Source: Naegleria gruberi (Eukaryota). Taken from it: a DNA stretch of 64,000 bases. This document shows, one piece after another, positions 27,660 through 63,599 of this stretch (the first letter of the stretch is position 1; each line of letters starts with the position of its first letter). The translations under genes and the position numbers were made by a program. The notes below the pieces were generated by a model. That model saw nothing but the letters and a program-made list of their open reading frames with translations. It searched no databases and had not been told where the DNA came from. Where the stretch lies: assembly GCA_000004985.1 (NCBI GenBank), contig GG738926.1. One strand, 5' to 3'.

Positions 27660-27732
27660 GAAAAAGGTTTAATACCTGTGGATTTGGAATTGGTGTGTCA
27701 AATATCTTGGGAGTTTGAAAAATCCACAAAAA

Positions 27733-28763: not shown

Positions 28764-29046
28764 ATTGACATGAGATACTTTCCTTTAATGAAATTTGAAT
28801 ATTTCCCATTAATTGGACTTGGGACGTAAAGAAGTAGTTCATTAGAAAACCAAATTGAAAATAAGATTTAGATCAAAAGAGTGAAATGAATTTAAACTTC
28901 TACTGTTGAACTCTTTTAGAAATATCAGTTTCTTCAATTGATTCTCTCTTTCTCTTCTCAGTTTCTTTGAACTGTTCTATTCTCACAATGTTTTCCCACG
29001 AATGAATGCGTATTAGAAATATACATTTGCTGGAAGATCAAAAAAA

Positions 29047-29514: not shown

Positions 29515-29662
29515 AATGAGCTCGAGTGTTATTCGAATGATTGGAACTGACTTTCTAATAAAATTTTACAAGGTCACTCAATCATTTTGTATGCGATTTT
29601 TAAAAATAAAGTCTTCATGCTGAGCTATTGTCACAATTCATAACAATAAAAAAAACTGTCAA

Positions 29663-30019
29663 ATGCCAAAAGGTTCCATTAAACTCAAAATTAGTGGTGG
29701 TAGAAGAAGTGGTTACAATAGCAGTAGCTCACACAGATCCGAGGACTCCCAAACTATTTTCACTAATTTTTCAACTTCAAAGAGACAATTTGAGTGTTGT
29801 GAGAATGAATGTCCAGTTCAAGGTGAAGTTGAACCCAAAGTTCAATATGGAAGCATGCTTGAAAGACAAGCACAACTATTTACACAATCCATGCACACAG
29901 GTTTATATGGATATTGTACCAAGAAGGGAATGGATCAGAATGCAATTGTTCCAGCTATTAAGATGGGGAGTCAATATTTGGAAGGAATAAGCAAGAAAAT
30001 TACAAAATTATTCCAATAA
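29663..30019 (+). CDS. hypothetical small protein (118 aa)
   Basis: ATG-initiated ORF. The overlapping ORF 29628..29990 starts with TTG and is less likely. Confidence 0.3.
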   Translation: MPKGSIKLKISGGRRSGYNSSSSHRSEDSQTIFTNFSTSKRQFECCENECPVQGEVEPKVQYGSMLERQAQLFTQSMHTGLYGYCTKKGMDQNAIVPAIKMGSQYLEGISKKITKLFQ

Positions 30020-30857
30020 TAAATGAGTAAAAATCTTTCTCAATCATCTTACAGAAACTTGTATTAGAAATTGACCATTAATAATTTAATAATAGAATAC
30101 AAATTTATAACAGAAACTGATTATTGTAACTTTAATAGATATTTTAGTTGGATGGACCAAAAACAGCTGTTGTAAAATTTTATCACATGATGGAAAGTCC
30201 GAAAATGGGCTGTGAAAAAAAACCATTGTAAACAACATAGACGGTTGACAGAATGACAACTTATTTAAAAAAAAATTAAAAAAAAAGAAAATGTATCACC
30301 ACTTCTTGACTCAGCACTTTGAAACTTGTAGAACTACACTTCTTCCCATCAACAAACCTGTGTTCAATTATTGGTACCAATACCTATTTGACTATACACC
30401 AATATACCAATAATTACAGTGTTGAGTAGAATTGTTCCTTCTCACACCATTACCCAAGTTGTTGGTGCACCATTAAAGCTGTAATAGAGATGAATATTGG
30501 CTCCCACACTTGAAAGCAATTTTTAAATTGCACAAAGTTTGTGAGATTTGCACACCACCAACAGTGATATGAGCACAATCACGATTGATGATTTGACTTG
30601 AAAAAATGGAGATTCTATAAATGGTTGAATTGGGCGAAAATTAAGAAATTGTAATCAGTAACACTATAAGTTGAGAAAATCACGTCCCTGGATGGTGATT
30701 GCGTGAGTGACATTAAAATAATCGATGATTACTTCAGTGATGTCACAGCCCCATTAAGCTTTCATTTACTAAATTGATTGTGGAATGGAAACTCAATGGC
30801 ACCTTGTGGATTTTAAATAGATTGTTTGTTTAAACTAAAGCTTAAAAAAACAACAGA

Positions 30858-31302
30858 AATGAAAATTGCAGAGATTTTAAATTATATCCAACATTCACAC
30901 AGGTATAATCATGATGATATTAATTATTTGTGCGGGTACTTTGCCATTGTGCAAGACGGAAAGAGGGGAATAGATATTTCTGCAACCAATATTCGTGCGT
31001 TTCTCGACACACTTCTCAAGACCCCAAAAGGTGAAGTTACAAAACTATTTTGGTACGGAAACTATGGCGGCCCAGGTACCAACTCAACACTGCTTCCAAT
31101 AGATGCTCTTGATGCAGCATGTCTATTTCATGATAAATACTTGCCAAAAGATAGGTTTCAAGACCTTACAAAATTTATTAGACGTCATTTCGGTGCACAA
31201 AATTGCTCAACAGACGCAAATTGGTATATCGATAGAATCAATGGTTTATTTTTTAGTTACGTAGAACCTGTTTATATGAATTGGTTTGTGTCAAAGAGCT
31301 AA
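30858..31302 (+). CDS. phospholipase A2-like protein with parvovirus-type motif set (YxGPG...P.D..DAA..HDxxY)
   Basis: WYGNYGGPGTNSTLLPIDALDAACLFHDKYL matches the Ca-loop and HD catalytic dyad of group XIII / parvoviral-VP1u-like PLA2. Real ATG at 30858 (track start 30826 is TTG). Confidence 0.45.
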
Positions 31303-31504
31303 GCTTATTATTGAAAAGTGTGCTCATCAAGAATACAACCAATTCAATATTAAAGCTTTGAATTAAATTTTAAATTAAAAAATCAAAAAAAATTCATCAC
31401 AGCACCCGAAAGATTCACATTTTGATGCTTTTTTGATATCCATCATTGAAACCTTTTTTGAAATTTAATAATTTATTATATAGATAATAATACATACAAG
31501 AATA

Positions 31505-32827
31505 ATGGAAGCAAACAAGGACTCTGCCATTCAATGTTTGCATATGGCAAAAGAATCAATTACCGATGCTTCTAATTCATCTCATCCCGAGGCTTGTTAT
31601 GATAAAGCAATTCGATTGATAAATAAGGCCAAGAAGTTGTATGAAGATGTAAATCCCTCTCATCACGGATTTGATAAAAATTTAAAATCAATTGATGATT
31701 TACTTGGATATGTTTTAACGAAAAAACATCAACATGGTCCTCATCATCAATCAAGTGCTGCTAGTAGCAGCAGTTCATCAACAACTCCATCATCTTCAAG
31801 AAGTAATAATCAAGAATCTTCTTCATCATCAGGTAATGAAAGTGGTAATGATTCATCTCCAACATATACAAAAGAACAAAAAGATGAAGTTCTTAAAATA
31901 ATTTCCTACAAGGACGATTACTACAAAGTTTTGGGAGTTGACAAGAAGGCAACCAAGGATGAAATTAAAAAGGCATATAGAAAATTAGCTTTGAAATTTC
32001 ACCCTGATAGAAATACTGTACCAGAAGCCACAGAAGCTTTCAAAATTATTGGTGGTGCATATATGTGTTTGAGTGACGAAGAAAAACGAAAATTATTTGA
32101 CACTTACGGAACTGAAGATAAACAGAAAATTGGGATGGACCAACAAGAAAGAATGTTCAGAAGATTCAATGGAGGAGGAGGTGGCGGATTAAATGGAGCT
32201 TATTATACTAATGGCTTCAATGATGACGAAATATTCTTTGATTTATTTTCACAAATGTTTGGAGGAGGGGGTAGAAATATCTACATGTCTCATCCTAATA
32301 TGAGAAGATATAGACAAGCACAAAGAGCTCAACATCATGATCATGATGACGATCAAAGTGTACCACAAACAACCTTCTCTTTCGGATGTATTCAAATGGT
32401 TTTCATTTTCTTCATTCTTTTCGTTTCTATGGCTCCTACTTTACTTTCTGGTCTATTTACACAAAGACCAACAAATGCCCATTCAGAGTTTTATGCAAAT
32501 GGATATTATCACTTTGAAAAACACAGTACTTATACTGTGGAACGATCAATGGAGTATACACCACCCTTCAAACGTGACAAACATCAAATACCGATCTTCT
32601 TCCCTCATGAAGTGATTAAAGCATATGGTGATTCAATTCAAACGAGGTATAGAACAAAGGTTCTGACAGATTATAGAACTTACTTGAACCGAAGATGTGA
32701 GGAACAAAAGTATTATGATAGATTGCCATCATCAGATTCAGAAAAGCAAAAGTGGAATAGAAGGAGACCAAAGAATAGAAGAGAATATGTAGATAATTGT
32801 GAAATACTTGCAGATTTGTTTGGATAA
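31505..32827 (+). CDS. DnaJ (Hsp40) protein, DNAJB12/14-like (J domain plus TM plus DUF1977-like C-terminus)
   Basis: J domain [33 protein letters not shown], Gly-rich stretch, TM helix [22 protein letters not shown]. Confidence 0.88.
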
Positions 32828-35939: not shown

Positions 35940-37412
35940 TTACAGTATAATATTGTTTTTCTTTGCGTAGAGTAAGACTGGTTTTGGATCTAAAGTTTCG
36001 TCTGATGTGTTTGAAAGCATATTTTCGAGAATAAACTTGGATAACATTTTTTCTTCTCTTTGTTTGGCTTTCTCCATCATTATGGATTCTTTTCTCACTT
36101 GTTTCATTTCTTCCAATCTCTTTTGTTCCTTTTCAGTTGCTTGCAATTTTTGATAATCTTGCACACGTCTGGCTCTTTCTTGAGAATTCTTCTTGTCAAT
36201 AAAGTCTTCAATCGCCATTTGCTTGTATCTTTCTCTTGCTTGTTGAGCCATAATCTTGTCAACTTCCTTATCCTTTTCAGAGACTAGCTTTTTGAATTGC
36301 ATTTGTTGTTTCCTGCTGTTATCCACGGTTTCCATAAATGCTTTCTTTCGTTGTTCTTGTTTCTCTTCTTCTTCCTTTTGTTTTTCTTCCATTTCTTGTT
36401 CTTGCTTGACATATCTTTCCTTTTCATTGGCTTTCATTTCCTCGAGCATTTTAGACTGTTTATCGATCAATTTTTGTCTGGATCTCAGTTTTTCTCTCAT
36501 ACGTTCCTCTTCTCTTCTCTTTTGCTCAGTTTCCTTTTCTTCCTTTTCTTGGATAAATTCCAAGTTTTTGAGTTTCTGCTCTTTTTCGTATTCAGCTTGT
36601 CTCCTCTTCTTTTCCTCGATTTCTTCTAATTCTTTTTTGTATTGAGCTGTTGCTCCTAATTGTTGTTCAGCCTTTTTCTTCTTTTTCTCCTCCTCTTCTT
36701 TGGAAAGATTAATCAGATGCAATCTCATTTGCTCCTTTTCTTTCTCCAACTCTTCAATTCGTTTCATGTGTCTTTGCTTGATACTATCAATTTGTGTGTC
36801 TTGATCTTTCCTGATTTCTTTTGCCTTTTCCTTAGCTTTTTGGGAGAGAGCTAGTTTTTCTTGAGCTGTTTTTTGGAGTTGTTCTCTTTGAACTTCCATC
36901 CATGATTCAACTTCTTGTTTTTCCATTTCTTCCATTTGCTTTTTAATTTCAATTTGGCGTTCTCTTTCCCTCAAAACCTCACCCAACAGAACCTTTCCTT
37001 GAACTGCCTTGACACGATCATCTTCAAGCATTCTCATTTTGTTTAATTTCTCTATTTGTTTTCTTTTGATTTCAGCTTGGTAGAGCGCTTCTTCTCTTTC
37101 AAGCCTTTGTTGTTCTTCTTCCTTAATTCTATTACGTTCTTCTCTTTCTTGCTCTTGCTTTACTCGAATGGCGTCAATTGTGTTTCCCCAATTTTGTGCT
37201 CTTCTATCGGACTGTTCTTTAAGTCTCTTCTTTCTCTCATTCTTATCTTCCTCCATATCTCTTTCATCTTTTAATTGGTTCATTATTGTTGAGAATTCTC
37301 CTTTGGTTAGAACAGCATATGTTCCTCTCTTTGGATTATTATCGTAATTTTGATGCCACAATCCCTTTGAGGCATTGTGTTGTTGCTTTGATCCTTGATT
37401 AAATGATATCAT
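35940..37412 (-). CDS. highly charged E/K/R-rich coiled-coil protein (TPH/trichohyalin-like repeats), 490 aa
   Basis: Continuous ORF. Dense ERK heptads. Its antisense strand yields the spurious poly-S/F ORFs seen in the track. Confidence 0.6.
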   Translation of the reverse strand: MISFNQGSKQQHNASKGLWHQNYDNNPKRGTYAVLTKGEFSTIMNQLKDERDMEEDKNERKKRLKEQSDRRAQNWGNTIDAIRVKQEQEREERNRIKEEEQQRLEREEALYQAEIKRKQIEKLNKMRMLEDDRVKAVQGKVLLGEVLRERERQIEIKKQMEEMEKQEVESWMEVQREQLQKTAQEKLALSQKAKEKAKEIRKDQDTQIDSIKQRHMKRIEELEKEKEQMRLHLINLSKEEEEKKKKKAEQQLGATAQYKKELEEIEEKKRRQAEYEKEQKLKNLEFIQEKEEKETEQKRREEERMREKLRSRQKLIDKQSKMLEEMKANEKERYVKQEQEMEEKQKEEEEKQEQRKKAFMETVDNSRKQQMQFKKLVSEKDKEVDKIMAQQARERYKQMAIEDFIDKKNSQERARRVQDYQKLQATEKEQKRLEEMKQVRKESIMMEKAKQREEKMLSKFILENMLSNTSDETLDPKPVLLYAKKNNIIL

Positions 37413-37545
37413 CCTCCTCCAATAATTATTATTTTTATTTAAAAACTACTGATAAATTGTTTGATGCTTTTGTTGTTGTTGCTATTGATGCAATGATGAT
37501 ATTTTTTACAGAGATGTTTTATTGCAACGAACAGATTAAGGTACT

Positions 37546-37558
37546 TTTTGGCGCCAAA
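37546..37558. promoter_or_regulatory. palindromic E2F-like site TTTTGGCGCCAAA
   Basis: Perfect palindrome matching the overlapping E2F consensus TTTSGCGC/GCGCSAAA, about 135 bp upstream of the minus-strand coiled-coil gene start (37412). Confidence 0.35.
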
Positions 37559-37945
37559 CGAACAACAACACCTTTTGAAAGGCAACCTGAAATGTAACCG
37601 TCAAAAATTATATTAAAAGATTAAATTGCTTAATGTTTTCTTTGAAAAGTTTACGTGGTAGATTATCTTCCTATCTTTCTCATTTTGGAATTGATGAAAC
37701 AATGAAAAAATAGTGCAATATAGGAAAAGTTGGAAAAGTCCAATATTTCATCGAAAAATAAATGGCGCGCCCGCCTTAATCACAAAACAAATTTCATAAA
37801 ATTGTAAATCAAACGTTCCTACCCGAATGTTGAAAAAGTACACTATTTTACCAAATATTTCAATGAAAGATGACATTTCTTGTTGTACTCCAACTTGTAT
37901 TCACACTACAAATTGAGCGCCAACAAGTATTTCATAATAGTATAA

Positions 37946-37957
37946 ATTTGGCGCCAT
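37946..37957. promoter_or_regulatory. E2F-like site TTTGGCGCCATT (with related GAGCGCCAAC at 37914 and TGGCGCGCCCGCC at 37763) in a divergent promoter
   Basis: Three GGCGCC-core elements within 200 bp between divergent genes 35940..37412 (-) and 38163..38822 (+). Such GC islands are unusual in the AT-rich intergenic context. Confidence 0.3.
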
Positions 37958-38162
37958 TTTTTTACATTCACTACAAACACTTACTCGAAAAAAAAGAATA
38001 CAAATCTCGATTTGACAACTCATACTGTCAAGTTGCATAGCTGCGAATCACTACCACATATTATCTAAATCCCTAAATCAATCTAGTTGTTATCTAGTTG
38101 TTGTTTATATAAATTTATAAATCGCCTCATCCTCTAACATTGTACAATTTCACACTTTCAAA

Positions 38163-44188: not shown

Positions 44189-45904
44189 ATGACTCAACAT
44201 GATACGGTAAAAGTTTTGCTGATTGATTTTTTAGATCAGCGAATAGAAACTCAACAATTTCTCCGATGCAAATTCCAACAGCAACAATTAGGAAGAATGA
44301 AATATTTGAAAAGAAGAGAGGAAAATTTGAGGAATTGTAAAGATTGGTTTCCCATTGAATTTGCAAAAGATAAATATTTTGTCATCAACCAAAAGTCCAT
44401 TGCAAGGGCAAAGATCTTTCGTCTACTTTCGGATGAATTAAAGAATGATAACGATGTTATTATTAGCTGCTACTCATATTTCGTTCATTTCAGTGATTAT
44501 TACAATGTTTTGATGAATTTATTGAAATCTAAAGAATTAGCTGAAGAATTTTTGAAACGAAACAAAGTTAGCAATTTTAATTTTGATCCACAAACGTGGA
44601 AAAATACAGAACTTTGTAAAATGTATTTAAGAAATTTGAAATATCCCAGGTCGAATGTTAGGCAATTTGATGATGAATTTATAGTGGAAGCTTCATGGTT
44701 CAATGTTTCTTATTTTAGACATGGATCAGTAGAATTGAGACGAAATAGAGAGGTGGTGCTGAAACTTTGTAAACATAACGGAATGGTGATTCAATATGTT
44801 AATGCAAAATTGAGATTTGATAGAGAAATAATATTGGAAACTCTGAAAAATTGTCCTTCAGCCATTGAGTTTATTCCAAATGAATTGAAATTCGAAAGAG
44901 ATTTAATTAATCAAGTATTTATTCATCACTATAGTGATGAGATCAACCTTGAGGATTTATCAGATGATATTGTATGGTTACGGACCTATTTGAAACTCTT
45001 TGGAATTAATAATATTCCAAGAACATGGTCAAGGAAATATTCGAATAACAAAGAGCTCATGATGGAATATATCAAAGAGAATGGAGATTATTTGAAATTC
45101 GTCTCTATGGAACTGAAAAATGATAAGGAATTAGTTTTGCAAGCTGTGAAAAATTCAGGCCTTGCCATTTACTATGCCTCTGAAGAATTGAAGCGAGATA
45201 GGGAAATAGTTTTGGAGGCAGTTAAGCAGGATGGTACTGCTTACAATTATGTGGCTCCTCATTTCTCTTCTGATAAGGAAATTATCTCATTGGCTCTTTG
45301 CAGAGATTCGAATTTTTTCAATCTTGCATCTGAAAGTTTGAAAAATGATTATGAATTTGTGATGGATATAGTATCAACAAGAGGAATGATATTGAAATTT
45401 CTACCAGAAACACTAATGAATAACAGGACAATTAATTTGGCAGCTATTTTAAATAATGGAAGAGTTATTGAATTTTCTCCTTTCAAACATGATCCAGAAA
45501 TATTGAATCAGGTGGTTAAAGTAGTTCCTTATTATTACTTGAGATTTGTAGATTTATCAATGTTTTCGGATGAAACCTTGATTGAGGCAGTAAGATTTTC
45601 TGAAGATCCTTTTTTAATCACCAAAAGAGCTAACTATTTGGATTTGCTACAACGATCTATTGAATACAATGTGCGTTTGGCATCTTCATTTCCATATGAA
45701 CATTTGACTGAACAACTGGTGTTGAAATTCATTAGAATGGATGGTTCTGTAATCGAATATCATAATATTAAGCGATTCATTCATTCAGACAAATCAAAAT
45801 ATTTCATCGAAGCTGTCAAATCAAATGGATTCTTCACTGAATTCGATCAGGAATTGTATCGACTGAGATTGAGTGAAGAATATCACGGAGCTATCATGCA
45901 CTAA
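44189..45904 (+). CDS. DUF4116-like repeat protein (571 aa)
   Basis: Tandem units of about 38 aa of the form ELKNDKELVLQAVKNSGLAIYYASEELKRDREIVLEAVKQDGTAYNYVAPHF. Confidence 0.55.
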   Translation: MTQHDTVKVLLIDFLDQRIETQQFLRCKFQQQQLGRMKYLKRREENLRNCKDWFPIEFAKDKYFVINQKSIARAKIFRLLSDELKNDNDVIISCYSYFVHFSDYYNVLMNLLKSKELAEEFLKRNKVSNFNFDPQTWKNTELCKMYLRNLKYPRSNVRQFDDEFIVEASWFNVSYFRHGSVELRRNREVVLKLCKHNGMVIQYVNAKLRFDREIILETLKNCPSAIEFIPNELKFERDLINQVFIHHYSDEINLEDLSDDIVWLRTYLKLFGINNIPRTWSRKYSNNKELMMEYIKENGDYLKFVSMELKNDKELVLQAVKNSGLAIYYASEELKRDREIVLEAVKQDGTAYNYVAPHFSSDKEIISLALCRDSNFFNLASESLKNDYEFVMDIVSTRGMILKFLPETLMNNRTINLAAILNNGRVIEFSPFKHDPEILNQVVKVVPYYYLRFVDLSMFSDETLIEAVRFSEDPFLITKRANYLDLLQRSIEYNVRLASSFPYEHLTEQLVLKFIRMDGSVIEYHNIKRFIHSDKSKYFIEAVKSNGFFTEFDQELYRLRLSEEYHGAIMH

Positions 45905-46211: not shown

Positions 46212-47768
46212 ATGCTTCTATCAAATGTTGCTGAGTTGGCCAATTCTGTTGGCTCGGATTCGTCCGTTGGTTTATTCGGATATCCAATAATGATTGTTTC
46301 ACTTATTGGAATGTTGGGTTCTTTCTTCTTGTGGTATGCAAGAATGATTTTTGGCAATTTATTGTTTAGATGGATGTTTTATCAATTGAATTTGTCTGAT
46401 ACTTGCATTGAATATGCTTGGTTTAGTTTGTGGTTCTCACACCATCCTTATACCAAAAATGGAAGTACTCATGTTAAACCATTCCAAAAAACAACCAAAC
46501 TTAGAGTTAATAGAACAAATGAACCAAAGGAAGAAGACTCAATTGCCACTTCAAATATTTCAGAAATGATTTCCAATTTGAAAGTCAACTTTGTTCCGAG
46601 TTATGGAATTCACATCTTGTACAGAAATTCTGAACCACTCATAGTTTCCATTTCCATTAATACCAATCAAAATAATAATGCCTACAACACAGAGGAGAAA
46701 ACTCGTGAAGATATTGTCATTTGGAAACCAAGACATTTCCTCACTGATTACCTTATCAAATTTTTATTTCCATGTCAAGATGGAGTGAACAATTGTAATT
46801 CAGTAATTGATATGTTGGAAAAGGCAGGAGTTGCCAAAGAGTTCCTCTCCTTTAATCCAACCTATCCTCAATCTATTGAGAATGCCTACTCTGTATTTCG
46901 TGAATTATTGTGTGACTGTTTCTATGTCCATACTCTCATGACCAGAGAAAAGACCACAATTTACACACCTTATTTCTCCCAATGGGTTTTGGCATCTTTC
47001 AAGGAGAAACGTGCTCAACATACTGTCATTCTCGATGAAGGAGTTTGGGAAGATTTACACAATGACGTTTCCAAATTCTTAAAATCAAAGCAATGGTACA
47101 AAGATAGAGGAATTCCATACAGAAGAGGATATTTACTTTATGGAGAACCTGGATGTGGTAAGACAACGACCATCTCATCAATTGCTGCCTGTTTGAATAT
47201 GAATATTTGTGTATTTACCTTAGATTCTCAAACCAATGACACTTCATTGAATTCCTTATTTTCAACAGTTCCTCCAAATTCAATTCTTGTCTTTGAAGAT
47301 ATTGATTCAATCTTTCCAAAGGAAGAAGATGAGAAAAAGTCAGATTCTGCCACAGATGAAGTTTCACACGGTAGATCAGTTGTCAAGACCAATACCAAAA
47401 GTACATTTTCCACAATTTTGAATTGTTTGGATGGTATTTCATCTCAAGAATCGAGAATTGTCTTTATGACCACCAATTTTAAGGAGAAACTTCCACCTGC
47501 ATTGATTAGAAATGGAAGAATTGATAGAAAGATTTATTTGGGACTTGCCACAAAGCATCAATTCTACAAAATGACTCAAAACTTTTATCCTGAGGAATAT
47601 GTTAAGGAGAAAGTTGACGAAATGTGGGAAAATATGAAAGAATATAGTTTCGGAATGGCCAATTTGCAAGGTTTCTTTTTGAGAAATGAAACTTTGGATG
47701 CAGCTGTCAAATCTTCCAAGAATTTTGAAATGTACATGAAGGAGGAAGAAACTCAAACTCAATTGTAA
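46212..47768 (+). CDS. BCS1-like mitochondrial AAA+ ATPase
   Basis: N-terminal TM plus BCS1_N-like region, Walker A GEPGCGKTT, Walker B ILVFEDID, NGRIDRKIYLG. 518 aa. Confidence 0.85.
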   Translation: MLLSNVAELANSVGSDSSVGLFGYPIMIVSLIGMLGSFFLWYARMIFGNLLFRWMFYQLNLSDTCIEYAWFSLWFSHHPYTKNGSTHVKPFQKTTKLRVNRTNEPKEEDSIATSNISEMISNLKVNFVPSYGIHILYRNSEPLIVSISINTNQNNNAYNTEEKTREDIVIWKPRHFLTDYLIKFLFPCQDGVNNCNSVIDMLEKAGVAKEFLSFNPTYPQSIENAYSVFRELLCDCFYVHTLMTREKTTIYTPYFSQWVLASFKEKRAQHTVILDEGVWEDLHNDVSKFLKSKQWYKDRGIPYRRGYLLYGEPGCGKTTTISSIAACLNMNICVFTLDSQTNDTSLNSLFSTVPPNSILVFEDIDSIFPKEEDEKKSDSATDEVSHGRSVVKTNTKSTFSTILNCLDGISSQESRIVFMTTNFKEKLPPALIRNGRIDRKIYLGLATKHQFYKMTQNFYPEEYVKEKVDEMWENMKEYSFGMANLQGFFLRNETLDAAVKSSKNFEMYMKEEETQTQL

Positions 47769-54358: not shown

Positions 54359-56105
54359 TCAAAAATCAGACAACTTTCCACTACTGTAAACTGAAGATTT
54401 ATCTTCATCATCGTCAGTCCACAAAGCATAAATTCCACTACTCAATTCTCGTTTTCCATTTTGGTTGACTTTATAAAATGATCCTGGTTCGTTTTCATCT
54501 TCAAATAAAAGTTTGGAAATGTCAAGAGGTTTGACACGTGTGTTTTCAATGAGATATTGAGCTAGTTCTTCATGATTGTTCATGTATGATATTTCGATGG
54601 GTCTGAATTGGAAGTTGATTGCTTGTTTGTGAGATTCTACATCGAGGAAACCTTCACTTCCTGTGTGTTTCTGGTATGTTATTGGAATCGAATAGGAATT
54701 AGTTTGAAACTTACATATTTCTGGGCAAGTTAGAATTTTTACAGAATGAATAGAGGACTACTTACAATAGGAGGACCTAACAGGTCTGGTTTCAAGTCCT
54801 TTCTCATATTTACAAATAATTTAACAATTTCTAAATCTCCTTTCGAACAAAGCTCATAAAATACGAAACCTCTATTAACATCCAAGTCTTTTCTAGAAAG
54901 TAATTTAGTGATTACTTCAAATTTGGTTTGGTTACTCAATTTGATGGCGCTTTTCAATATTAACCCATCTTCAATATTCAAATCAAGATTTGTATTCGTA
55001 AGGAAACGTGAAAGAATTTCAGAATTTTCTAAACAATAAGCAAGTGGACAACCTTGATTGATATCAATGTTTGGATTATTCAGAAATAGCTGCACCATTT
55101 CAAGATTACCAGATTTACAAACTTGAACAAACGATTGACATTCGTTTGGATTAGTTTTTGAGTTTTCCAACAATATTCCAATAATGTCCATACTATGATT
55201 ATCATCCAGAGCTATTCTCAGTGGTGTTATGTGCTCAATCTTATCCAAACTATCTCTCAAAATATGTGGAAACTTTTCAAATAGGTTCGTCTCTGAAACT
55301 TCCTTAATTCCAAAATTAGTATCAATATTTGGCTTTTTCAAAATCAATTTCACAATGTGTTTGCTCGCCTTCTTCATTGCCAGAAACAGTATCGACCTGC
55401 CATGTAATTCTGAAACACTCGATGTCCCAAATGTCAAATATCCTGCATATCCCTTATTAATATCAATGTCACTCCTTCCCATCAAAATCTCAGCAGTTGA
55501 ATAATGACCATTCTCAATAGCCACATACAAAGCTGTCTTGGCACATGGAAAAATCAAATCACCTTCAGATTTATGCTTCTTCTCATGAATTTTCAAATCA
55601 CTTTTCGATTTTCTAAATTCGTCTTGTCCCTTCTTTACATCATTCTTTTGGAAATTTAAAATTTTTGTAATTTTAAATGGAAAATTACTTACAATCTGAA
55701 TAATGGTCAAATTTACAAATTAAAATTCACTAAAATTGACAAGAAACTTACTCTTTCAATTTGAATTGAAAATTTGTTCACTTGAATGTGATTCGAATTA
55801 TTGAACGAAAGTAGCAGCTTGACAATTTCATCGTGACCTCTTTTACTGGCCAAATAGAGTGGAGTTTTGGTTGAATAGGCATTATCACATCCCAAATTAA
55901 TATCCAAATCAGGACATTCTAATAATTTATGAATAATCGAAAGGTCACCTCCGAAATGTTTAATTGCTTCGTATAAAAGCGAATGACCTTTATCATTTAG
56001 TTGGTTGATGATGTGGTTTAATTTCATGTGGGAAAGTTGTTCCACCTTTCCTTGTTGAATGAGTTCGAATGCATGATGCTTTCGGTAGGAATCTAATAGA
56101 AACAT
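54359..56105 (-). CDS. ankyrin-repeat protein, 3 exons: 56105..55752, 55695..54766, 54670..54359. About 535 aa.
   Basis: ANK repeats (TPLYLASKRGHDEIVKLLL, HYSTAEILMGRSDIDINKG...). GTAAGT donors at 55751 and 54765, acceptors CAG at 55696 and 54671. Introns of 56 and 95 nt keep the frame. Track start 56120 is TTG; the ATG (MFLLDSYRK) is at 56105. Confidence 0.7.
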
Positions 56106-56625
56106 TTTTTTTAATGTCAAAAAGAAATGAGGTTCAATAATGGAAAGTATGGTTGCTGATTGGTTTCGTTTTGGTAATTTTGTAGTTTATTCAAAGTCTT
56201 ACAGTTCCACAGCTTCACAAATATGTTTCTTTACAAAAGGTTAGTTTTATTCGAAACCATTCTTATTGTAAACTAACAAAAACCGTAGTTGATTACACAA
56301 ATCATAAACTACACATTGCTAATCACAAATCAACAAATAAACTGTCGTTTGACGATTAATACAATGTACGAAGAGATCTACAAGTTTAAATGACACGATA
56401 TTCTATTGGAAACTTAGTTTTCGAAACTTTAACACACTATTCCAAAATGTTGAAATTTACTAATAGAACACAATTTCTTTAATCATCAAGGTAACTTTCG
56501 TATAAAACCAGCTCACATTAGCTAAGCTTTCGAATAACATTGTTAACAAAAAATAACGTAAAACATGCAAGGAAACAAATTGATTATTTGCCTCTCTGTT
56601 GTGTTTATTCCTCTTTTTCATCCAA

Positions 56626-57444
56626 ATGTCAGCTGCCACTTGGCCTTCCCAAGTTGTCAACATTACCAGTTGGAAATTAACTCTTCCAATAGGTGAAATC
56701 GGTGATCCCATTGAAATCTACCAACCAACTCTCAACCAATACATTCTAAATCCTTATTTTGGAGTTGGACCAAACAAGACATCTATTCGATTCAGAGTTG
56801 TCATTACAAACGAAACTGTTACAACTTCTGGATCTAATTATCCAAGAAGTGAGCTTAGAGAAATGGATTCTGTTAATCCTAGTTCTGTAAAAGCTAGTTG
56901 GAATACTAGTGTTGGTGTTCATACGATGATTATTGATCAAACTATTACGAAACTTCCTGCTATTCGAAACAAATTAATTGCTGGTCAAATTCATGATGCT
57001 GACGAATTTATTGTGACCATAAATTTGGAGGGCACTAAACTCTACATTAATGTGCAAGATGTTGGAACCACAACCATCACAAAAAATTACATTTTGGGAA
57101 CAAGATTCCAAATTAAGATTCAAGCCAAAAATGGAACTACAAGTATTTATTACAATGATATGAATACCCCAGTTTATTCCGTTTCCAAGACCTATAAGGG
57201 AGCTTACTTTAAGGCAGGTTGTTATTCGCAATCCAATTGCGCCTACGAAGGAACTTCTTGTGGAAAGTCCAGTAATTATGCTGAAGTGTTAATTCACAAT
57301 TTGACAGTTACTCATGAATATCCAAAAACTGGAAGAAAGGGGATGAAATGGTTTGGAGAAACAAATGATGTACCTGCTGTGAGATTTGGATTGGTCAATT
57401 TGGTCATTGTTTGTTTAGTGTTTGCATTTATGGCACTTTTTTAA
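56626..57444 (+). CDS. polysaccharide lyase family 7 (alginate-lyase-like) protein with C-terminal hydrophobic tail
   Basis: All three PL7 signature blocks present: RSELREM, QIHD, YFKAGCYSQS. Real ATG at 56626 (track 56599 is TTG). An upstream ATG at 56565 encodes a signal-peptide-like MQGNKLIICLSVVFIPLF in the -1 frame. Confidence 0.7.
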   Translation: MSAATWPSQVVNITSWKLTLPIGEIGDPIEIYQPTLNQYILNPYFGVGPNKTSIRFRVVITNETVTTSGSNYPRSELREMDSVNPSSVKASWNTSVGVHTMIIDQTITKLPAIRNKLIAGQIHDADEFIVTINLEGTKLYINVQDVGTTTITKNYILGTRFQIKIQAKNGTTSIYYNDMNTPVYSVSKTYKGAYFKAGCYSQSNCAYEGTSCGKSSNYAEVLIHNLTVTHEYPKTGRKGMKWFGETNDVPAVRFGLVNLVIVCLVFAFMALF

Positions 57445-57461: not shown

Positions 57462-58958
57462 TTATTCGAAAGTAAATCCCAAAGATTCAGTTTGTGTAAC
57501 AATTGAAACATCACTAAATATTCCCTTTTCATAACAAGATTTCACTTTCTTTGCCATTAATTCAGCCTTCGAATATTCTTCCTTATTGAACTTCCAATAG
57601 AAAAATGCAAACTTTTTGTGTTGTTCTTGCCACATCAAACAATCGATTTCGAATACTTTTCCATAAGGATAGCATACAGGTGAAGTGAATTTGTACGGAT
57701 AGGTCATGTGCTTATTTCTATCATCCACATCAATTGAACTGTCATTGTAAACTGTTACCAATAAACAGTCAACTTGCAAATATTTTACAATCTTTCGTTG
57801 AGTTTCAATGCAAGATTCTTCTTTAGCATTTTCTTCTTTATCTAATTGAATTTGTTCTTTTCTTTCATCCTCTTGAGTTTCTTCTTGAGTTTCGTCTTCA
57901 CTTTCTTCCTCACTTTCTTCTTCAATTTCTTCTTCTTCTTCACTCTCATCTTCTAAACTTTCTTCCTCATCATCTTCAGATTCCACTCCACGAGCTTTAA
58001 TAATATTTCCTCTTTGAATTTTAACAATTCCATAACCATCAGTAGTTGCCACAATTCCATCATGTCCAAAATCAACATCAATACATCTGACAGAATTTGA
58101 TAGCTCAATTTGCTTGAACATGTAAAAGTTTGGATAAACTCCAGAAGATTTCGAAACACAATATTGAGAAGCATTCTCACCACAAACATAAATTGTGCCA
58201 CTATTCGAAAGTGCAACAACTCTCCTATAAAATCCAACAACCTTAATAAAGAAAGGTTTAGGGCACTTTCTTTGGAGCTTGATTTCACATTCGCCAAGAT
58301 TCACAACGGTTTGCACATTTTTCTGACCTCTTGCAGCAGCTCCATCATAATTATATCCTAAACTGTAAAGGTTTCCATCAGAAAGTATTAGAAATAGAGC
58401 TGGCTCATTTGCTCCCATGCTTATGATGTCCAAATTTCTAGCCTCTTCAACTTCAAACAATGGACATTGTGTTTTGGTATTGTAAAGTTTCATTTGCATG
58501 ATTCCAATTTGTGTGAAATTCTTTCCAAATTGAGAATAATTATTTAGACGAAAGAGAGGATCCATTAAGTTGGTGTTATTGAGAGAAACAACAAGTAATC
58601 TCTTGTAAACTGTTGATAGAAAGAGAAATCCTTGCGAATAGGCCATGTGTTTGACATCTTTCCATGAAAATGTTTGATTTCCATTCGATTCGATAAAAGT
58701 TTCGAATACTTGTTTGATTTTTAAATCAATGACGAATGGACCGGGACCTTTAACGATGAAGCATTTGATGTCATTCGCGTCTTTATCTGTATTGCATCCT
58801 AGACAAATTGTAACTCCACTCTTTTTGCAATCCGAAACCGCTTGGTCAATTCGCAAGTTGGCAAGATTAGGATAATGTTCAGAAGAAAGATAATTCTCTT
58901 GCATGTAACCCTTATAGGAAGGGAATGGTACAACTCCAGCATAGCTAGGATGAGACAT
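57462..58958 (-). CDS. hypothetical protein with RCC1-like repeats (tentative) and a poly-acidic E/S/D insert (498 aa)
   Basis: Repeated G..Y..G.N..G motifs (SDGNLYSLGYNYDGAAARGQ, SNSGTIYVCGENASQ). GAA-repeat-encoded acidic stretch at 57840-57960. Confidence 0.45.
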   Translation of the reverse strand: MSHPSYAGVVPFPSYKGYMQENYLSSEHYPNLANLRIDQAVSDCKKSGVTICLGCNTDKDANDIKCFIVKGPGPFVIDLKIKQVFETFIESNGNQTFSWKDVKHMAYSQGFLFLSTVYKRLLVVSLNNTNLMDPLFRLNNYSQFGKNFTQIGIMQMKLYNTKTQCPLFEVEEARNLDIISMGANEPALFLILSDGNLYSLGYNYDGAAARGQKNVQTVVNLGECEIKLQRKCPKPFFIKVVGFYRRVVALSNSGTIYVCGENASQYCVSKSSGVYPNFYMFKQIELSNSVRCIDVDFGHDGIVATTDGYGIVKIQRGNIIKARGVESEDDEEESLEDESEEEEEIEEESEEESEDETQEETQEDERKEQIQLDKEENAKEESCIETQRKIVKYLQVDCLLVTVYNDSSIDVDDRNKHMTYPYKFTSPVCYPYGKVFEIDCLMWQEQHKKFAFFYWKFNKEEYSKAELMAKKVKSCYEKGIFSDVSIVTQTESLGFTFE

Positions 58959-61418: not shown

Positions 61419-63599
61419 ATGTCAGTGTTTCCAGATCTATCGAGCACTTCATTCCCTGCTCTCAAGGAATGCTCTGACTCATTAAAAGTCTGGAATCTTC
61501 AGGAATTGTATGATTTTTCCTCCTCCGAATACAAAACTGCATGGGAATCAAATATTGATCATCATGATAAGCTATCATGTGTTTATCATGATTGCGTCTA
61601 TTTGCAATCATTAAATAATTTTTCTTTTAATCATGCTGATGAGAGGGATGGAAGATTGATTTTAATTAATTTGAAAACAAAAACGAATCGAACAATTCCA
61701 GTGAGAGGGCTTCATTGTACAAAGGTTGATCGGGATGGGAAGGTGATATTGATTAGTTCTGATAGGAAGTCGTTGCAGGTTTTTCATTTGGAAATGAAGA
61801 GTAAAATAGCTGACATTCGGACAGAAAAAGAGTTTCATTTTGCTGATTGGTTGGATAGTGAGAATATTGTGTTTGTGGAGGGAAGTTCATTGTGTAAATT
61901 GAATATTTCACAACAAGATCAGCAGCAGGAAGTTATTATTGAGAATATTCCTGGTGAGTTCAATAAGGATATTACCGGAGTGATTTTTAATATGGAGATG
62001 TGTGCCATTCAAACAGTGAAGAAGGGAGAGTATTCGTTCTATTTGTACAAGTCAGATTTAAAGGTAGGTCAAATAGTGGGACCTAATAATGCATTTGGTG
62101 TTTGCTTGATGGAAGATTCGAAAAAGTTGGTATTGCTTTCTTCAAATGGCTTATTGTTTAAAGACCCTACTGTTGGAAATATAACTGAGCCAGTTTTGTT
62201 TTCAGAGAAGGCATACATGACACACTACTTTAAGGAGTCTCAATTGGTTGCATTTGTTGGGTATAAGGGTGATAGTGGTGTTATTGACCTTTCTTCTAAA
62301 AAACTTATTGCTAGACATGATTTCAAAACAGAAATAGTGAACAGTTTCAAGACGGATGATAGTCTCGTTATAGTTACAAAGGGAGGGAAAGTGATTGAGT
62401 GCTGTTTTAATGCAGAATTCATGTTACATACGTATAGAAACAACTACGATGTGTCAACAGAAATAATGGCTTATTGGAAACGCTTTTCAGAGAGCAATAT
62501 TAAGGATTTTAGACTTTCATCAATTCAATCAATCTTACCATTACAGACTCCTCTGAACAAGTACAATAGAGATTACTATATTCCTCATGGAGGTATTCAT
62601 ATTTTCCATCCGATTATTTCTTACTACTTCCCTTACATGTATCAGTGTGTAATTAGAAACGAACTCTCCATAGAATACACAACTGAGGAGCAAAATATCA
62701 TTAAGGATTTTGTTTCCTACCTGATTTATAGAGGCCAAGATTTGAAAATAGACAGAGACAATTATCTAAAGTGGATGTTCATATTCGATAGATGTTGGTT
62801 TGAATTTACAGAATTGGAATCAAAAATTGTAACTCTTTTCAATAATGATTTTGGTTTGATTTTGCCAGAAATTTCTCCCCTATTGCAGACGTTAACCGAA
62901 TATCAATCCAGAAATTTAAATTTTGAAAATGGTTTGTTACAAAAGTGTATCAACTATTGCAGAGATACCATGGATGGCAAAGAAGTTTCACAAGTAGAAC
63001 CTTTTATTAATGAACACATTCCAATTAGGTTGTCCATCGATTGTATCTACAACCGCCAAGATACTCATGATATCACATTGGTCGCTTATGGAAGGAAAAT
63101 TGGAGCTCATAAAACCGTTCTGGCATCTACAAGTCCAATATTGGAAGTAATGTTGGACGAGGAAGGATCGTTCAAGAGTGAAGTCACAGAAAATCAAGAG
63201 TTGGTGTTAGGTGGAGAAGATCTTGAGATACCAGAGAAAGATAGAGAGAAGAAGGGAGAACTATTCGAGTTACTTGTTAAATTTTGCTATACATCAAGTG
63301 TAGACTGTTCTCCAGAGGATGCATTTCTATTATATGAAATGGCTGATCAGTATCAAATTACTGATCTCAAGACATCTCTTGCAGACAAGATCATTGCACA
63401 ATTGAACCTTGACACATTTATGGAGATAGTCAAATGGAGTGATATTTTTGTACAAATTTCAAACAAACATCTGCACAGAGGAATTCTCAATTTTGCATCC
63501 CTTAATGGAATGAAACTTTTAGAATTATATTCAGATCAATTAGTTGCCTATCCAGAATTCCTTGTTAGATTTCTCAAATTTTCTTTTAATGTTGAATAA
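61419..63599 (+). CDS. BTB/POZ-domain protein (726 aa)
   Basis: C-terminal BTB core: DITLVAYGRKIGAHKTVLASTSPILEVML ... FELLVKFCYT ... LLYEMADQYQITDLK. Confidence 0.65.
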   Translation: MSVFPDLSSTSFPALKECSDSLKVWNLQELYDFSSSEYKTAWESNIDHHDKLSCVYHDCVYLQSLNNFSFNHADERDGRLILINLKTKTNRTIPVRGLHCTKVDRDGKVILISSDRKSLQVFHLEMKSKIADIRTEKEFHFADWLDSENIVFVEGSSLCKLNISQQDQQQEVIIENIPGEFNKDITGVIFNMEMCAIQTVKKGEYSFYLYKSDLKVGQIVGPNNAFGVCLMEDSKKLVLLSSNGLLFKDPTVGNITEPVLFSEKAYMTHYFKESQLVAFVGYKGDSGVIDLSSKKLIARHDFKTEIVNSFKTDDSLVIVTKGGKVIECCFNAEFMLHTYRNNYDVSTEIMAYWKRFSESNIKDFRLSSIQSILPLQTPLNKYNRDYYIPHGGIHIFHPIISYYFPYMYQCVIRNELSIEYTTEEQNIIKDFVSYLIYRGQDLKIDRDNYLKWMFIFDRCWFEFTELESKIVTLFNNDFGLILPEISPLLQTLTEYQSRNLNFENGLLQKCINYCRDTMDGKEVSQVEPFINEHIPIRLSIDCIYNRQDTHDITLVAYGRKIGAHKTVLASTSPILEVMLDEEGSFKSEVTENQELVLGGEDLEIPEKDREKKGELFELLVKFCYTSSVDCSPEDAFLLYEMADQYQITDLKTSLADKIIAQLNLDTFMEIVKWSDIFVQISNKHLHRGILNFASLNGMKLLELYSDQLVAYPEFLVRFLKFSFNVE

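What the first reader, a model, noticed from the sequence alone, without database searches (positions are those of the whole stretch)
56565..57444. PL7 alginate-lyase-like gene in an amoebozoan genome: candidate horizontal acquisition, with a -1 frame signal peptide upstream
The protein carries all three diagnostic PL7 blocks: RSELREM, QIH and YFKAGCYSQS. That family is overwhelmingly bacterial or algal-associated and, to my knowledge, not a standard component of dictyostelid proteomes. The gene is intronless. A textbook signal peptide (MQGNKLIICLSVVFIPLF) starts at an ATG at 56565 but is in the -1 frame relative to the main ORF, with the switch inside a T5 run around 56610-56618. Either a homopolymer sequencing error hides a secreted enzyme, or the protein is truncated.
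Basis: partly seen in the sequence, partly recalled or inferred. Interest (0 to 1): 0.7.

Follow-up and report, generated by a model that had tools for sequence, protein, structure and literature searches.

The report
Frameshifted bacterial-type alginate lyase in Naegleria
This is a real polysaccharide lyase family 7 (alginate-lyase type) gene, but it lies in the amoeboflagellate Naegleria gruberi rather than an amoebozoan, is one of four bacterial-like paralogues there, and in this reference copy is cut off from its start codon by an 8-base deletion.

Summary
The ORF at 56599-57444 is a full-length PL7 lyase: Pfam PF08787 E 1.2e-33, all three motif blocks, and an AlphaFold model that matches polyguluronate lyase 1UAI (TM 0.94).

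The window is not amoebozoan. Three neighbouring ORFs are identical to Naegleria gruberi NEG-M RefSeq proteins, and the flanking genes are plainly eukaryotic.

The locus seems to have no protein model. It would be a fourth paralogue beside three annotated N. gruberi PL7 proteins (54-71% identity). The four form one clade (100% NJ bootstrap). Their nearest named relatives (~50% identity) are mostly candidate-phyla-radiation (CPR) Microgenomates bacteria. Fungal PL7s are far more distant (15-22%). An old bacterial acquisition followed by duplication is the best reading.

A second, unidentified eukaryote, possibly heterolobosean, carries three related copies and groups weakly with Naegleria. The transfer may therefore predate the genus.

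The frameshift is real in this sequence but is not at the T5 run. A 98.5%-identical contig from an ENA metagenome has 8 extra bases (TCACAACG) after 56586. That restores one 295-aa protein with a signal peptide and a GPI-like hydrophobic tail.

No independent data show whether the reference deletion is a true null allele or an assembly error.

Verdict: an ordinary member of a known family, of modest interest.

The parts
56565..56586 (+). Start codon and first seven complete codons (MQGNKLI) plus the first base of codon 8, in the frame of the ATG. In this sequence they are out of frame with the rest of the gene.
   Evidence: They are identical to the start of the intact allele L001/P0001.
56586..56587 (+). 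Junction of an 8-bp deletion relative to the intact allele. L001 has TCACAACG here. Placement is ambiguous by one T.
   Evidence: Alignment A1. Codon comparison. The tblastn break lies at 56587.
56587..56637 (+). Rest of the signal-peptide coding sequence (FASLLCLFLFFIQMSAA), read in the main ORF frame. The predicted cleavage site follows SAA, before TWPSQ.
   Evidence: P0001 N-terminus. Paralogue P0002 has the homologous LTFAVICLFFIHNLNA|IWPSQ. Hydrophobicity. The cleavage site is inferred by eye, not predicted with a tool.
56614..56618 (+). It is not the site.
   Evidence: It is identical in the window and in the intact allele.
56626..56628 (+). First in-frame ATG of the main ORF in the window allele. 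Starting here gives MSAATWPSQ..., which has no hydrophobic signal core.
56656..57315 (+). PL7 catalytic domain (beta-jelly roll).
   Evidence: PF08787 covers residues 20-239 of the 281-aa ORF. phmmer against 1uai_A gives E 2.4e-51. AF2 model pLDDT 90.7, Foldseek TM 0.94 to 1uai.
56845..56865 (+). RSELREM block. It contains the conserved Arg that positions or activates the catalytic Tyr.
   Evidence: R97, E99, L100, R101, E102 and M103 are invariant in alignment A2. The role of the Arg is taken from PMC11920209.
56986..56994 (+). QIH block (active-site Gln and His).
   Evidence: Q144 and H146 are invariant in A2. It aligns to AQIHD of 1uai.
57205..57234 (+). YFKAGCYSQS block. It contains the catalytic Tyr.
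   Evidence: Y217, F218, K219, G221, Y223 and Q225 are invariant in A2. The Tyr as base/acid is taken from PMC11920209.
57316..57387 (+). Short hydrophilic linker after the catalytic domain (EYPKTGRKGMKWFGETNDVPAVRF). It is absent from the bacterial homologues.
   Evidence: The AF2 model has pLDDT below 50 for residues 262-273. Both amino-acid differences from L001 lie here.
57388..57444 (+). C-terminal hydrophobic tail (GLVNLVIVCLVFAFMALF) plus the stop codon. It looks like a GPI-attachment signal or a membrane anchor.
   Evidence: Kyte-Doolittle mean of 2.9 over the last 17 residues. P0002 has the same kind of tail (2.6), whereas the bacterial homologues end at VTHQ. No GPI predictor was available.

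Best explanation
The locus is a polysaccharide lyase family 7 (alginate-lyase type) gene of Naegleria gruberi NEG-M. It is a fourth paralogue, apparently without a protein model, in a small family.

Origin (inferred). The family descends from a bacterial PL7 gene taken up by an ancestor of Naegleria, possibly an earlier heterolobosean. It was then duplicated and adapted to the eukaryotic secretory pathway.

Product (shown for the intact allele L001/P0001). The intact gene encodes a 295-aa pre-protein with three parts:
- an N-terminal signal peptide;
- a ~225-aa beta-jelly-roll catalytic domain carrying the full PL7 active site, namely Arg in RSELR, Gln and His in QIH, and Tyr in YFKAG;
- a short linker followed by a terminal hydrophobic segment, which would hold the enzyme on the cell or phagosome membrane, most likely through a GPI anchor.

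Function (inferred). The enzyme would cleave polyuronates by beta-elimination, with the Tyr abstracting H5. By similarity to AlyPG the substrate is probably guluronate-containing alginate. This would help a bacterivorous soil amoeba break down alginate capsules, biofilm matrix or cyst coats of prey such as Pseudomonas or Azotobacter.

Frame break (shown). In the reference sequence an 8-bp deletion inside the signal-peptide coding region separates the start codon from the rest of the ORF. This copy can at best give a non-secreted protein from the ATG at 56626. The deletion is either a recent null allele (my estimate ~0.65) or an error of the assembly (~0.3).
For: Identity as PL7:
- PF08787 matches full length, E 1.2e-33.
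- phmmer against PDB gives 1uai_A polyguluronate lyase at 2.4e-51 and AlgAT5 at 1.7e-48.
- Motif residues are invariant in a 40-sequence alignment.
- The AF2 model has pLDDT 90.7, and Foldseek gives TM 0.94-0.95 and rmsd 1.8 A to 1uai and 5zqi.

Host and integration:
- Three window ORFs equal N. gruberi RefSeq proteins.
- Neighbouring genes encode an IP3-receptor-like protein, GlnRS, a formin, BCS1, a BTB protein, an RCC1-like protein and ankyrin proteins. One neighbour has a GTAAGT...CAG intron.
- The convergent neighbour's stop codon lies 17 nt downstream.
- GC3 is 0.275, within the neighbours' range.

Bacterial origin:
- After three N. gruberi paralogues (65, 65 and 55% identity), the hits are ~45-52% identical proteins.
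- Of the 12 named non-Naegleria proteins, 9 are CPR bacteria, 8 of them Microgenomates.
- One such contig shows a bacterial gene layout.
- The Naegleria sequences are monophyletic in 100% of NJ bootstraps.
- Fungal PL7 structures are only 15-22% identical and are absent from the phmmer hits.

Frameshift:
- Alignment to L001 shows the 8-nt indel.
- Paralogue P0002 confirms the reading frame of the signal peptide.
- The two alleles differ by 9 synonymous and 2 non-synonymous changes. Both non-synonymous changes lie outside the catalytic domain, which indicates purifying selection until recently.

Anchor:
- The window protein and P0002 have terminal hydrophobic tails. P0003 has a linker plus a TM segment. 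The bacterial homologues have none.
Against: - No expression, activity or localisation data exist for any Naegleria PL7.
- Substrate specificity is only inferred. PL7 also contains beta-glucuronan lyases (7nde is hit 8; PMC11920209).
- The window allele was not found in any other dataset. The deletion could therefore be an assembly artefact.
- L001 could come from another strain rather than from the second haplotype.
- The trees are NJ only and contain just the 120 best hits. The Naegleria branch is long (46.5% mean identity to bacteria, against 65% among the bacteria), so its exact sister group is unresolved.
- Absence from N. fowleri, N. lovaniensis, Willaertia and Acrasis is inferred only from their absence among the top 120 hits.
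- GPI anchoring was not tested with a predictor.
Confidence: 0.75

Rival explanations
1. A homopolymer sequencing error in the T5 run (56614-56618) hides an otherwise intact secreted enzyme.
For: Both frames are open between 56584 and 56696. From this sequence alone the switch could be placed anywhere in that stretch.
Against: The T5 run and everything from 56587 onwards are identical in the intact allele. The only difference that restores the frame is the 8-nt TCACAACG at 56586/56587. Paralogue P0002 supports the main-frame reading FA..CLF.F.I upstream of the T5 run.
Confidence: 0.02
2. The 8-bp gap is an assembly or consensus error of the reference. In that case the NEG-M gene is intact and functional.
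For: - The window allele is found nowhere else.
- The only other copy seen (L001) is intact.
- The 9:2 ratio of synonymous to non-synonymous changes suggests a gene under selection.
- The same ENA sample holds a contig whose product equals the NEG-M protein P0002 exactly. L001 may therefore come from NEG-M or a very close strain.
Against: - An 8-base loss in non-repetitive sequence is not a typical sequencing error.
- L001 differs from the window at about 14 substitutions and 2 other indels. It is a different haplotype or strain and does not report directly on the reference reads.
Confidence: 0.3
3. The frame change is bridged by a small intron, so the window allele is normally expressed and secreted.
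For: N. gruberi genes do have introns; the neighbouring ankyrin gene has one. Ten GT/GC...AG combinations restore an open frame.
Against: - None of the ten has a GTAAGT-like donor.
- Each would delete the hydrophobic core of the signal peptide, conserved N-terminal residues of the domain (for example P30 or L36 of A2, and in several candidates also W39, K40, T42 and P44), or both.
- The intact allele and paralogue P0002 are colinear ORFs without an intron at this position.
Confidence: 0.02
4. The PL7 family is ancestral in eukaryotes, or at least in Heterolobosea, and was inherited vertically. It would not be a Naegleria-lineage horizontal acquisition.
For: - Three related PL7 paralogues (P0022, P0044, P0054) lie on clearly eukaryotic contigs of JGI sample 3300062347.
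- A neighbouring RING protein has Acrasis kona as its best named hit.
- These three group with Naegleria in the NJ tree and share 3 rare residues with it, against a mean of 0.2 in 95 control triplets.
Against: - Support for that grouping is weak (32% bootstrap).
- The second eukaryote's proteins are 62.5% identical to bacterial ones but only 49% identical to Naegleria's.
- No other named eukaryote is among the 120 best hits, although Acrasis and Willaertia proteomes are in the database.
- Fungal PL7s belong to distant branches.
- At most this moves the transfer deeper into Heterolobosea. The source would still be bacterial.
Confidence: 0.1
5. The gene is bacterial contamination of the assembly.
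For: The closest relatives outside Naegleria are bacterial, and the gene is intronless.
Against: - The gene lies mid-scaffold between N. gruberi genes, 17 nt from a convergent RCC1-like gene.
- Composition is that of the host.
- It carries eukaryote-type additions: a short cleavable signal peptide and a C-terminal anchor.
- There are four diverged paralogues. The three annotated ones lie on three other large scaffolds of 418-507 kb.
Confidence: 0.01
6. The enzyme is a PL7 lyase, but its natural substrate is not alginate. It could act on beta-glucuronan or another polyuronate from prey or from the environment.
For: PL7 includes the Trichoderma parareesei beta-glucuronan lyase (7nde; PMC11920209). 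The substrate of the CPR homologues is unknown. One of them sits next to a GH18 chitinase.
Against: The two closest characterised relatives (41-42% identity in the Foldseek structural alignment; TM 0.94-0.95) are both alginate lyases, AlyPG and AlgAT5. The glucuronan lyase is only 22% identical.
Confidence: 0.25

Closest known systems
AlyPG, polyguluronate lyase of Corynebacterium sp. ALY-1 (PDB 1UAI; PL7)
   Same: It is the best solved relative: phmmer E 2.4e-51 over the whole domain, and Foldseek TM 0.94, rmsd 1.8 A, 41% identity. It has the same YPRSELREM, QIHD and YFKAG.Y.Q.NC blocks and the same single-domain beta-jelly roll.
   Different: AlyPG is a bacterial secreted enzyme with no C-terminal extension. 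The Naegleria protein adds a eukaryotic signal peptide, a linker and a terminal hydrophobic anchor. Its activity and specificity are untested.
AlgAT5 of Defluviitalea phaphyphila (PDB 5ZQI; PL7)
   Same: phmmer E 1.7e-48; Foldseek TM 0.95; 42% identity. It shares HTMIIDQ.IT.LP with the Naegleria proteins.
   Different: It is bacterial and has no membrane anchor.
Annotated N. gruberi 'predicted proteins' with PF08787 (P0002 299 aa, P0003 424 aa, P0004 247 aa)
   Same: They are paralogues in the same genome, 54-71% identical over the domain, and monophyletic with the window gene (100% bootstrap). They have the same signal-peptide layout. P0002 has the same kind of hydrophobic C-terminus.
   Different: - The window locus has no protein model in the collection and carries the 8-bp frameshift.
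- P0002 has QVH instead of QIH.
- P0003 has a long Asn/Ser/Thr-rich linker.
- P0004 lacks the tail.
PL7 proteins of candidate-phyla-radiation bacteria (Levy-, Roizman-, Gottesman-, Davies- and Shapirobacteria; for example P0011, P0025, P0041)
   Same: They are the closest relatives outside eukaryotes, at 45-52% identity over the full catalytic domain.
   Different: They have an N-terminal transmembrane anchor plus a Pro/Thr/Ser linker in place of a cleavable signal peptide, and they end directly after VTHQ. They are 65% identical to one another but only 46.5% identical to the Naegleria clade.
Fungal PL7 enzymes (Paradendryphiella salina PsAlg7A/C alginate lyases; Trichoderma parareesei PL7A glucuronan lyase)
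   Same: They are also eukaryotic, secreted PL7 beta-jelly rolls with the Tyr/His/Arg active site (PMC11920209).
   Different: They are only 15-22% identical and fall below the phmmer threshold. They belong to a different branch of the family, so the Naegleria genes are an independent eukaryotic occurrence.

Membership tests
Polysaccharide lyase family 7 (Pfam PF08787 Alginate_lyase2) | Significant full-length match to the family profile, above the curated cutoff | tested here: met
   E 1.2e-33, 117.3 bits against a cutoff of 29.7, profile positions 1-225 of 225.
Polysaccharide lyase family 7 (Pfam PF08787 Alginate_lyase2) | Conserved blocks R(S/T)ELR, Q(I/V)H and YFKAG.Y.Q, carrying the active-site Arg, Gln, His and Tyr | tested here: met
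   RSELREM at 56845-56865, QIH at 56986-56994, YFKAGCYSQS at 57205-57234. The residues are invariant across 40 homologues and align to those of 1uai. Their roles are taken from PMC11920209.
Polysaccharide lyase family 7 (Pfam PF08787 Alginate_lyase2) | Beta-jelly-roll fold | tested here: met
   AF2 model with pLDDT 90.7 and pTM 0.82. The top 43 Foldseek PDB hits are all PL7 structures, the best with TM 0.94-0.95.
Polysaccharide lyase family 7 (Pfam PF08787 Alginate_lyase2) | Beta-eliminative cleavage of alginate or another polyuronate | not testable with these tools
   This needs an enzyme assay (A235 on polyM, polyG, polyMG and glucuronan).
Secreted, GPI-anchored surface enzyme | In-frame N-terminal signal peptide | tested here: not met
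   In the window allele the ATG at 56565 is out of frame. The first in-frame ATG (56626) gives MSAATW..., with no hydrophobic core. In the intact allele L001/P0001 the feature is present: MQGNKLIITTFASLLCLFLFFIQMSAA.
Secreted, GPI-anchored surface enzyme | C-terminal hydrophobic segment ending at the C-terminus, preceded by a short polar spacer with small residues (omega site) | tested here: inconclusive
   The tail GLVNLVIVCLVFAFMALF has a Kyte-Doolittle mean of 2.9 and follows ...ETNDVPAVRF. No GPI predictor was available, so a simple tail anchor cannot be excluded.
Gene acquired horizontally from bacteria | Closest relatives outside the recipient lineage are bacterial, and the recipient clade is monophyletic | tested here: met
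   for the named hits. Searches give 100% bootstrap for the Naegleria clade. One search shows the bacterial context of a top hit. Limits: NJ trees only, and only the top 120 hits.
Gene acquired horizontally from bacteria | Physically integrated in the host chromosome, not contamination | tested here: met
   Flanked by exact N. gruberi RefSeq genes and by genes with eukaryotic domains and introns. Composition is host-like.
Gene acquired horizontally from bacteria | Absent from related eukaryotes (patchy distribution) | tested here: inconclusive
   No named eukaryote other than N. gruberi is in the top 120 hits. However, three copies exist in an unidentified eukaryote, possibly heterolobosean. 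Other heterolobosean genomes could not be searched directly.

The most novel reading that the evidence does not exclude
Heterolobosean amoebae took up a PL7 lyase from candidate-phyla-radiation (Microgenomates-like) bacteria, duplicated it and tethered the copies to their surface. They now use them as feeding enzymes that open alginate capsules, biofilm matrix or Azotobacter-type cyst coats of bacterial prey. The QIH/QVH split among the paralogues would reflect different block specificities. The frameshifted reference allele would be a segregating null in a heterozygous diploid.
Probability: 0.25. Interest if true: 0.5.

Novelty: new member of a known kind. Interest (0 to 1): 0.3.

Why it matters
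The finding adds a fourth locus, apparently without a gene model, to a small family of bacterial-type PL7 lyases in the model amoeboflagellate N. gruberi. It also corrects the reading of the frame break.

If the enzymes are active and surface-bound, they would be a concrete example of a bacterivorous protist using a horizontally acquired lyase against bacterial exopolysaccharide. That bears on protist grazing of biofilms.

The link to CPR bacteria and to a second, unidentified eukaryote is a small but testable point about the routes of gene transfer into Heterolobosea.

None of this changes what is known about PL7 enzymes. Three of the paralogues are already in public databases with the domain assigned.

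Tried and rejected
- **Homopolymer slip at the T5 run.** Rejected by alignment to the intact allele.
- **Intron rescue of the frame.** I enumerated all GT/GC-AG combinations. Ten keep an open frame, but all have poor donors and would delete the signal-peptide core, conserved N-terminal residues, or both.
- **Amoebozoan or dictyostelid origin.** Rejected by exact matches to N. gruberi proteins.
- **Contamination.** Rejected by the flanking genes and the composition.
- **Independent confirmation of the window allele.** Exact-protein look-ups of the 272-aa and 281-aa products found nothing. A junction pattern allowing either allele found nothing in JGI metagenomes. A look-up of the neighbouring RCC1-like protein in the gene-position index also found nothing, so reference-genome gene models could not be viewed.
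- **Close orthologues in JGI metagenomes.** Only two bacterial-like loci at 48-50% identity turned up.
- **Identifying the second eukaryote with a second marker.** The adenylate-cyclase search gave only unnamed or cyanobacterial hits and was uninformative.
- **Literature.** I found no paper linking Naegleria or other Heterolobosea with alginate lyase, PL7 or polysaccharide lyases, and no paper citing PRJEB11402. The N. gruberi genome paper is not held, so I could not check its list of lateral-transfer candidates.
- **N-glycosylation sequon density as a mark of eukaryotic adaptation.** It does not differ from the bacterial homologues.
- **L001 and L002 as transcripts.** There is no poly(A) tail, and several upstream ATGs lie in the supposed 5' UTR. 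No conclusion about expression is possible.
Full report
**1. What is in the sequence**

An uninterrupted ORF runs 56599-57444 on the + strand, and its first in-frame ATG is at 56626. Its product matches Pfam PF08787 (Alginate_lyase2, equivalent to CAZy family PL7) over the whole profile. The match has E 1.2e-33 and 117 bits against a curated cutoff of 29.7.

- RSELREM at 56845-56865;
- QIH at 56986-56994;
- YFKAGCYSQS at 57205-57234.

An ATG at 56565 opens MQGNKLII... in another frame. The core observation is therefore real.

**2. Whose genome it is**

Three ORFs of the window are letter-for-letter identical to Naegleria gruberi RefSeq proteins on a 174,974-bp scaffold:
- 57462-58958(-) equals XP_002669494.1;
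- 46212-47768(+) equals XP_002669458.1;
- 61419-63599(+) equals XP_002669462.1.

The window is 31-39% GC throughout. Other ORFs encode an IP3-receptor-like channel, glutaminyl-tRNA synthetase, a formin, a BCS1-type AAA protein, and BTB, RCC1-like and ankyrin proteins. The ankyrin gene just upstream has a GTAAGT...CAG intron.

The host is therefore a heterolobosean (Discoba), not an amoebozoan. The PL7 gene lies inside a genuine eukaryotic chromosome region, and its stop codon is 17 nt from the stop of a convergent host gene. Its GC3 (0.275) falls within the range of its neighbours (0.23-0.37).

**3. The frame break**

The best database hit is P0001, at 99% identity and 295 aa. It comes from a 1,186-bp contig (L001) of ENA metagenome assembly ERZ929261.

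The DNA alignment shows that L001 is about 98.5% identical to the window. L001 carries 8 bases, TCACAACG, that the window lacks between 56586 and 56587. With them, the ATG at 56565 reads straight into the main ORF: MQGNKLIITTFASLLCLFLFFIQMSAA|TWPSQ.... tblastn of P0001 picks up the window frame from residue 11 at 56587.

The T5 run at 56614-56618 is identical in both sequences, so it is not the site. Paralogue P0002 begins MNKQSVVLTFAVICLFFIHNLNA|IWPSQ. This confirms that the main-frame reading of 56587-56637 is the true signal peptide.

I enumerated every GT/GC...AG intron that could bridge the frames. Ten keep an open frame. None has a good donor, and each would remove the signal-peptide core, conserved N-terminal residues, or both.

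In the window allele the first in-frame ATG gives MSAATW..., which has no hydrophobic core. This copy could not be secreted.

Within the coding region the two alleles differ by 9 synonymous and 2 non-synonymous changes. Both non-synonymous changes lie in the linker after the catalytic domain. This indicates purifying selection until recently.

I could not find the window allele in any other dataset. Whether the deletion is a true allele or an assembly error therefore remains open. Published work describes Naegleria as mainly a heterozygous diploid (PMC9928731). I put a true allele at about 0.65 and an error at about 0.3.

**4. The protein**

phmmer against PDB sequences gives polyguluronate lyase AlyPG (1uai_A) at E 2.4e-51 and AlgAT5 (5zqi_A) at 1.7e-48.

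In a 40-sequence alignment the following residues are invariant, in P0001 numbering:
- R97, E99, L100, R101, E102 and M103;
- Q144 and H146;
- Y217, F218, K219, G221, Y223 and Q225.

An AlphaFold2 model of the repaired protein has mean pLDDT 90.7. It is a beta-sandwich flanked by an N-terminal and a C-terminal helix. Foldseek places it on 1uai and 5zqi with TM 0.94-0.95 and rmsd 1.8 A, and the top 43 hits are all PL7 structures.

According to recent mechanistic work on PL7 (PMC11920209):
- the Tyr of the YFKAG block abstracts H5 and protonates the leaving oxygen in a syn beta-elimination;
- the conserved Arg lowers the pKa of that Tyr;
- the His contacts the +1 sugar.

All of these residues are present here.

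After the domain come 24 polar residues and then GLVNLVIVCLVFAFMALF at the very C-terminus, with a Kyte-Doolittle mean of 2.9. P0002 has an equivalent tail. P0003 has a long Asn/Ser/Thr-rich linker and a hydrophobic segment. The bacterial homologues end right after the last strand. I read this tail as a GPI-attachment signal or membrane anchor. That is inferred, not tested.

**5. Relatives and origin**

The search returned 1,921 significant hits. After P0001 come three N. gruberi 'predicted proteins' at 65, 65 and 55% identity, located on three other large scaffolds. Everything else lies at 45-52% identity.

Of the 12 named non-Naegleria hits, nine are candidate-phyla-radiation bacteria. Eight of those are Microgenomates (Levy-, Roizman-, Gottesman-, Davies- and Shapirobacteria), and the ninth belongs to Candidatus Moranbacteria. 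One of the unnamed top hits sits on a contig with a bacterial layout, next to a GH18 gene.

No protein model from NCBI or UniProt matches the window locus itself. It therefore seems to lack a protein model in the reference.

In NJ trees of the catalytic domain (221 columns, 121 sequences) the Naegleria sequences form one clade in 100% of bootstraps. That clade sits on a long branch. Mean identity is 46.5% between Naegleria and the bacteria, against 65% among the bacteria themselves.

Fungal PL7 enzymes are only 15-22% identical. This is therefore a separate eukaryotic occurrence of the family. Taken together, the data support uptake of a bacterial gene followed by duplication.

**6. A second eukaryote**

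Three hits (P0022, P0044, P0054) are 239-243 aa long and have short cleavable-looking signal peptides. They come from three contigs of one JGI sample, 3300062347.

Their neighbouring genes are plainly eukaryotic. They include Kelch, RRM, RGS, START, LIM, P450, AP-5 sigma, F-box, metacaspase and RING genes.

The RING protein's best named hit is Acrasis kona at 35% identity (E 2e-45), and Willaertia appears lower in the list. This hints at a heterolobosean, but it rests on a single marker. A second marker was uninformative.

These three proteins are 62.5% identical to the bacterial ones and 49% identical to Naegleria's. They join Naegleria in the best NJ tree, with only 32% bootstrap support. 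They also share three rare residues with Naegleria, against a mean of 0.2 in 95 control triplets, of which only one reached 3.

The transfer may therefore predate the genus Naegleria, or there may have been two transfers. This is unresolved.

**7. Function**

It is shown that the locus encodes an intact PL7 active site and fold, and that the intact allele has a secretory signal.

It is inferred that the enzyme is a surface-tethered polyuronate lyase, most probably acting on alginate. N. gruberi is a soil and freshwater bacterivore, and alginate in such habitats comes from Pseudomonas and Azotobacter. That last point is general knowledge and was not tested here. The most likely role is breakdown of prey capsule, biofilm matrix or cyst coat.

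PL7 also contains beta-glucuronan lyases (7nde), so another polyuronate substrate is possible (~0.25).

From my own knowledge of the PL7 literature, QIH is associated with G- or MG-preferring enzymes and QVH with M-preferring enzymes. P0002 has QVH, whereas the window gene, P0003 and P0004 have QIH. The paralogues may therefore differ in specificity.

**8. Known or new**

I found no paper linking Naegleria or other Heterolobosea with alginate lyase or PL7. The genome paper could not be read.

Three paralogues are already in public databases with the Pfam domain assigned. The window locus is a further, frameshifted member of a well-understood enzyme family.

I rate it as a new member of a known kind, with interest about 0.3. 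The horizontal-transfer reading is sound and the frameshift is now explained, but neither would surprise a specialist.

Noticed in passing
L005:5930-6661, L006:10001-10720, L007:10001-10732 (JGI sample 3300062347, contigs Ga0606064_0653, _0015, _0121): Three PL7 paralogues (239-243 aa, about 78% identical to one another) lie on compact contigs of ~36% GC (measured on L005). Their neighbours are eukaryotic genes: Kelch, RRM, RGS, START, LIM, P450, AP-5 sigma, metacaspase and RING. The organism is unidentified. One marker points to Heterolobosea, with Acrasis kona as the best named hit at 35%.
   Followed up: partly
L002:238-1137 (P0002, N. gruberi paralogue): This paralogue has QVH where the window gene, P0003 and P0004 have QIH. 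In the PL7 literature, as I recall it, this position is linked to M- versus G-block preference. The paralogues may have diverged in specificity.
   Followed up: no
L001 and L002 (ENA ERZ929261, run ERR1078381, project PRJEB11402): One 'metagenome' assembly holds two relevant contigs. One encodes a product that equals the NEG-M protein P0002 exactly. The other is the intact variant of the window gene, 1.5% diverged. Both contigs are ~1.2 kb, with ~240 nt upstream and 30-50 nt downstream of the ORF. The sample may contain NEG-M or a close strain. I found no paper citing the project.
   Followed up: partly
L003:2093-4142: In a bacterial contig of probable CPR type (inferred), the PL7 gene is followed 17 nt later by a GH18 (chitinase-family) gene on the same strand. 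Most other ORFs on the contig have no Pfam match.
   Followed up: no
window 2332-10665 (+): A single 2,777-aa ORF carries Ins145_P3_rec, MIR, RIH and RIH_assoc domains. It is an IP3/ryanodine-receptor-like channel encoded without introns.
   Followed up: no
window 55690-55750 (-): The two ankyrin ORFs (54739-55710 and 55713-56120) are separated by an in-frame stop. The stop lies within a short GTAAGT...CAG intron, so they form one spliced gene rather than a pseudogene.
   Followed up: yes
window 36001-38000: There is a strong strand asymmetry (AT skew -0.34, GC skew -0.22). It coincides with a trichohyalin-plectin-homology (TPH) gene on the - strand (35940-37412).
   Followed up: partly
window 23840-23913 (+): This tRNA-Arg(TCT) is the only RNA gene found in the window by ARAGORN and Rfam.
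   Followed up: yes
window 44189-45904 (+): A 571-aa ORF consists largely of repeats of DUF4116, with six matched stretches and E 2.7e-85.
   Followed up: no
window 26744-31505: This ~4.8-kb stretch has no ORF of 200 aa or more. It contains only several 97-164-aa ORFs on the + strand, which may be exons of a multi-intron gene.
   Followed up: no
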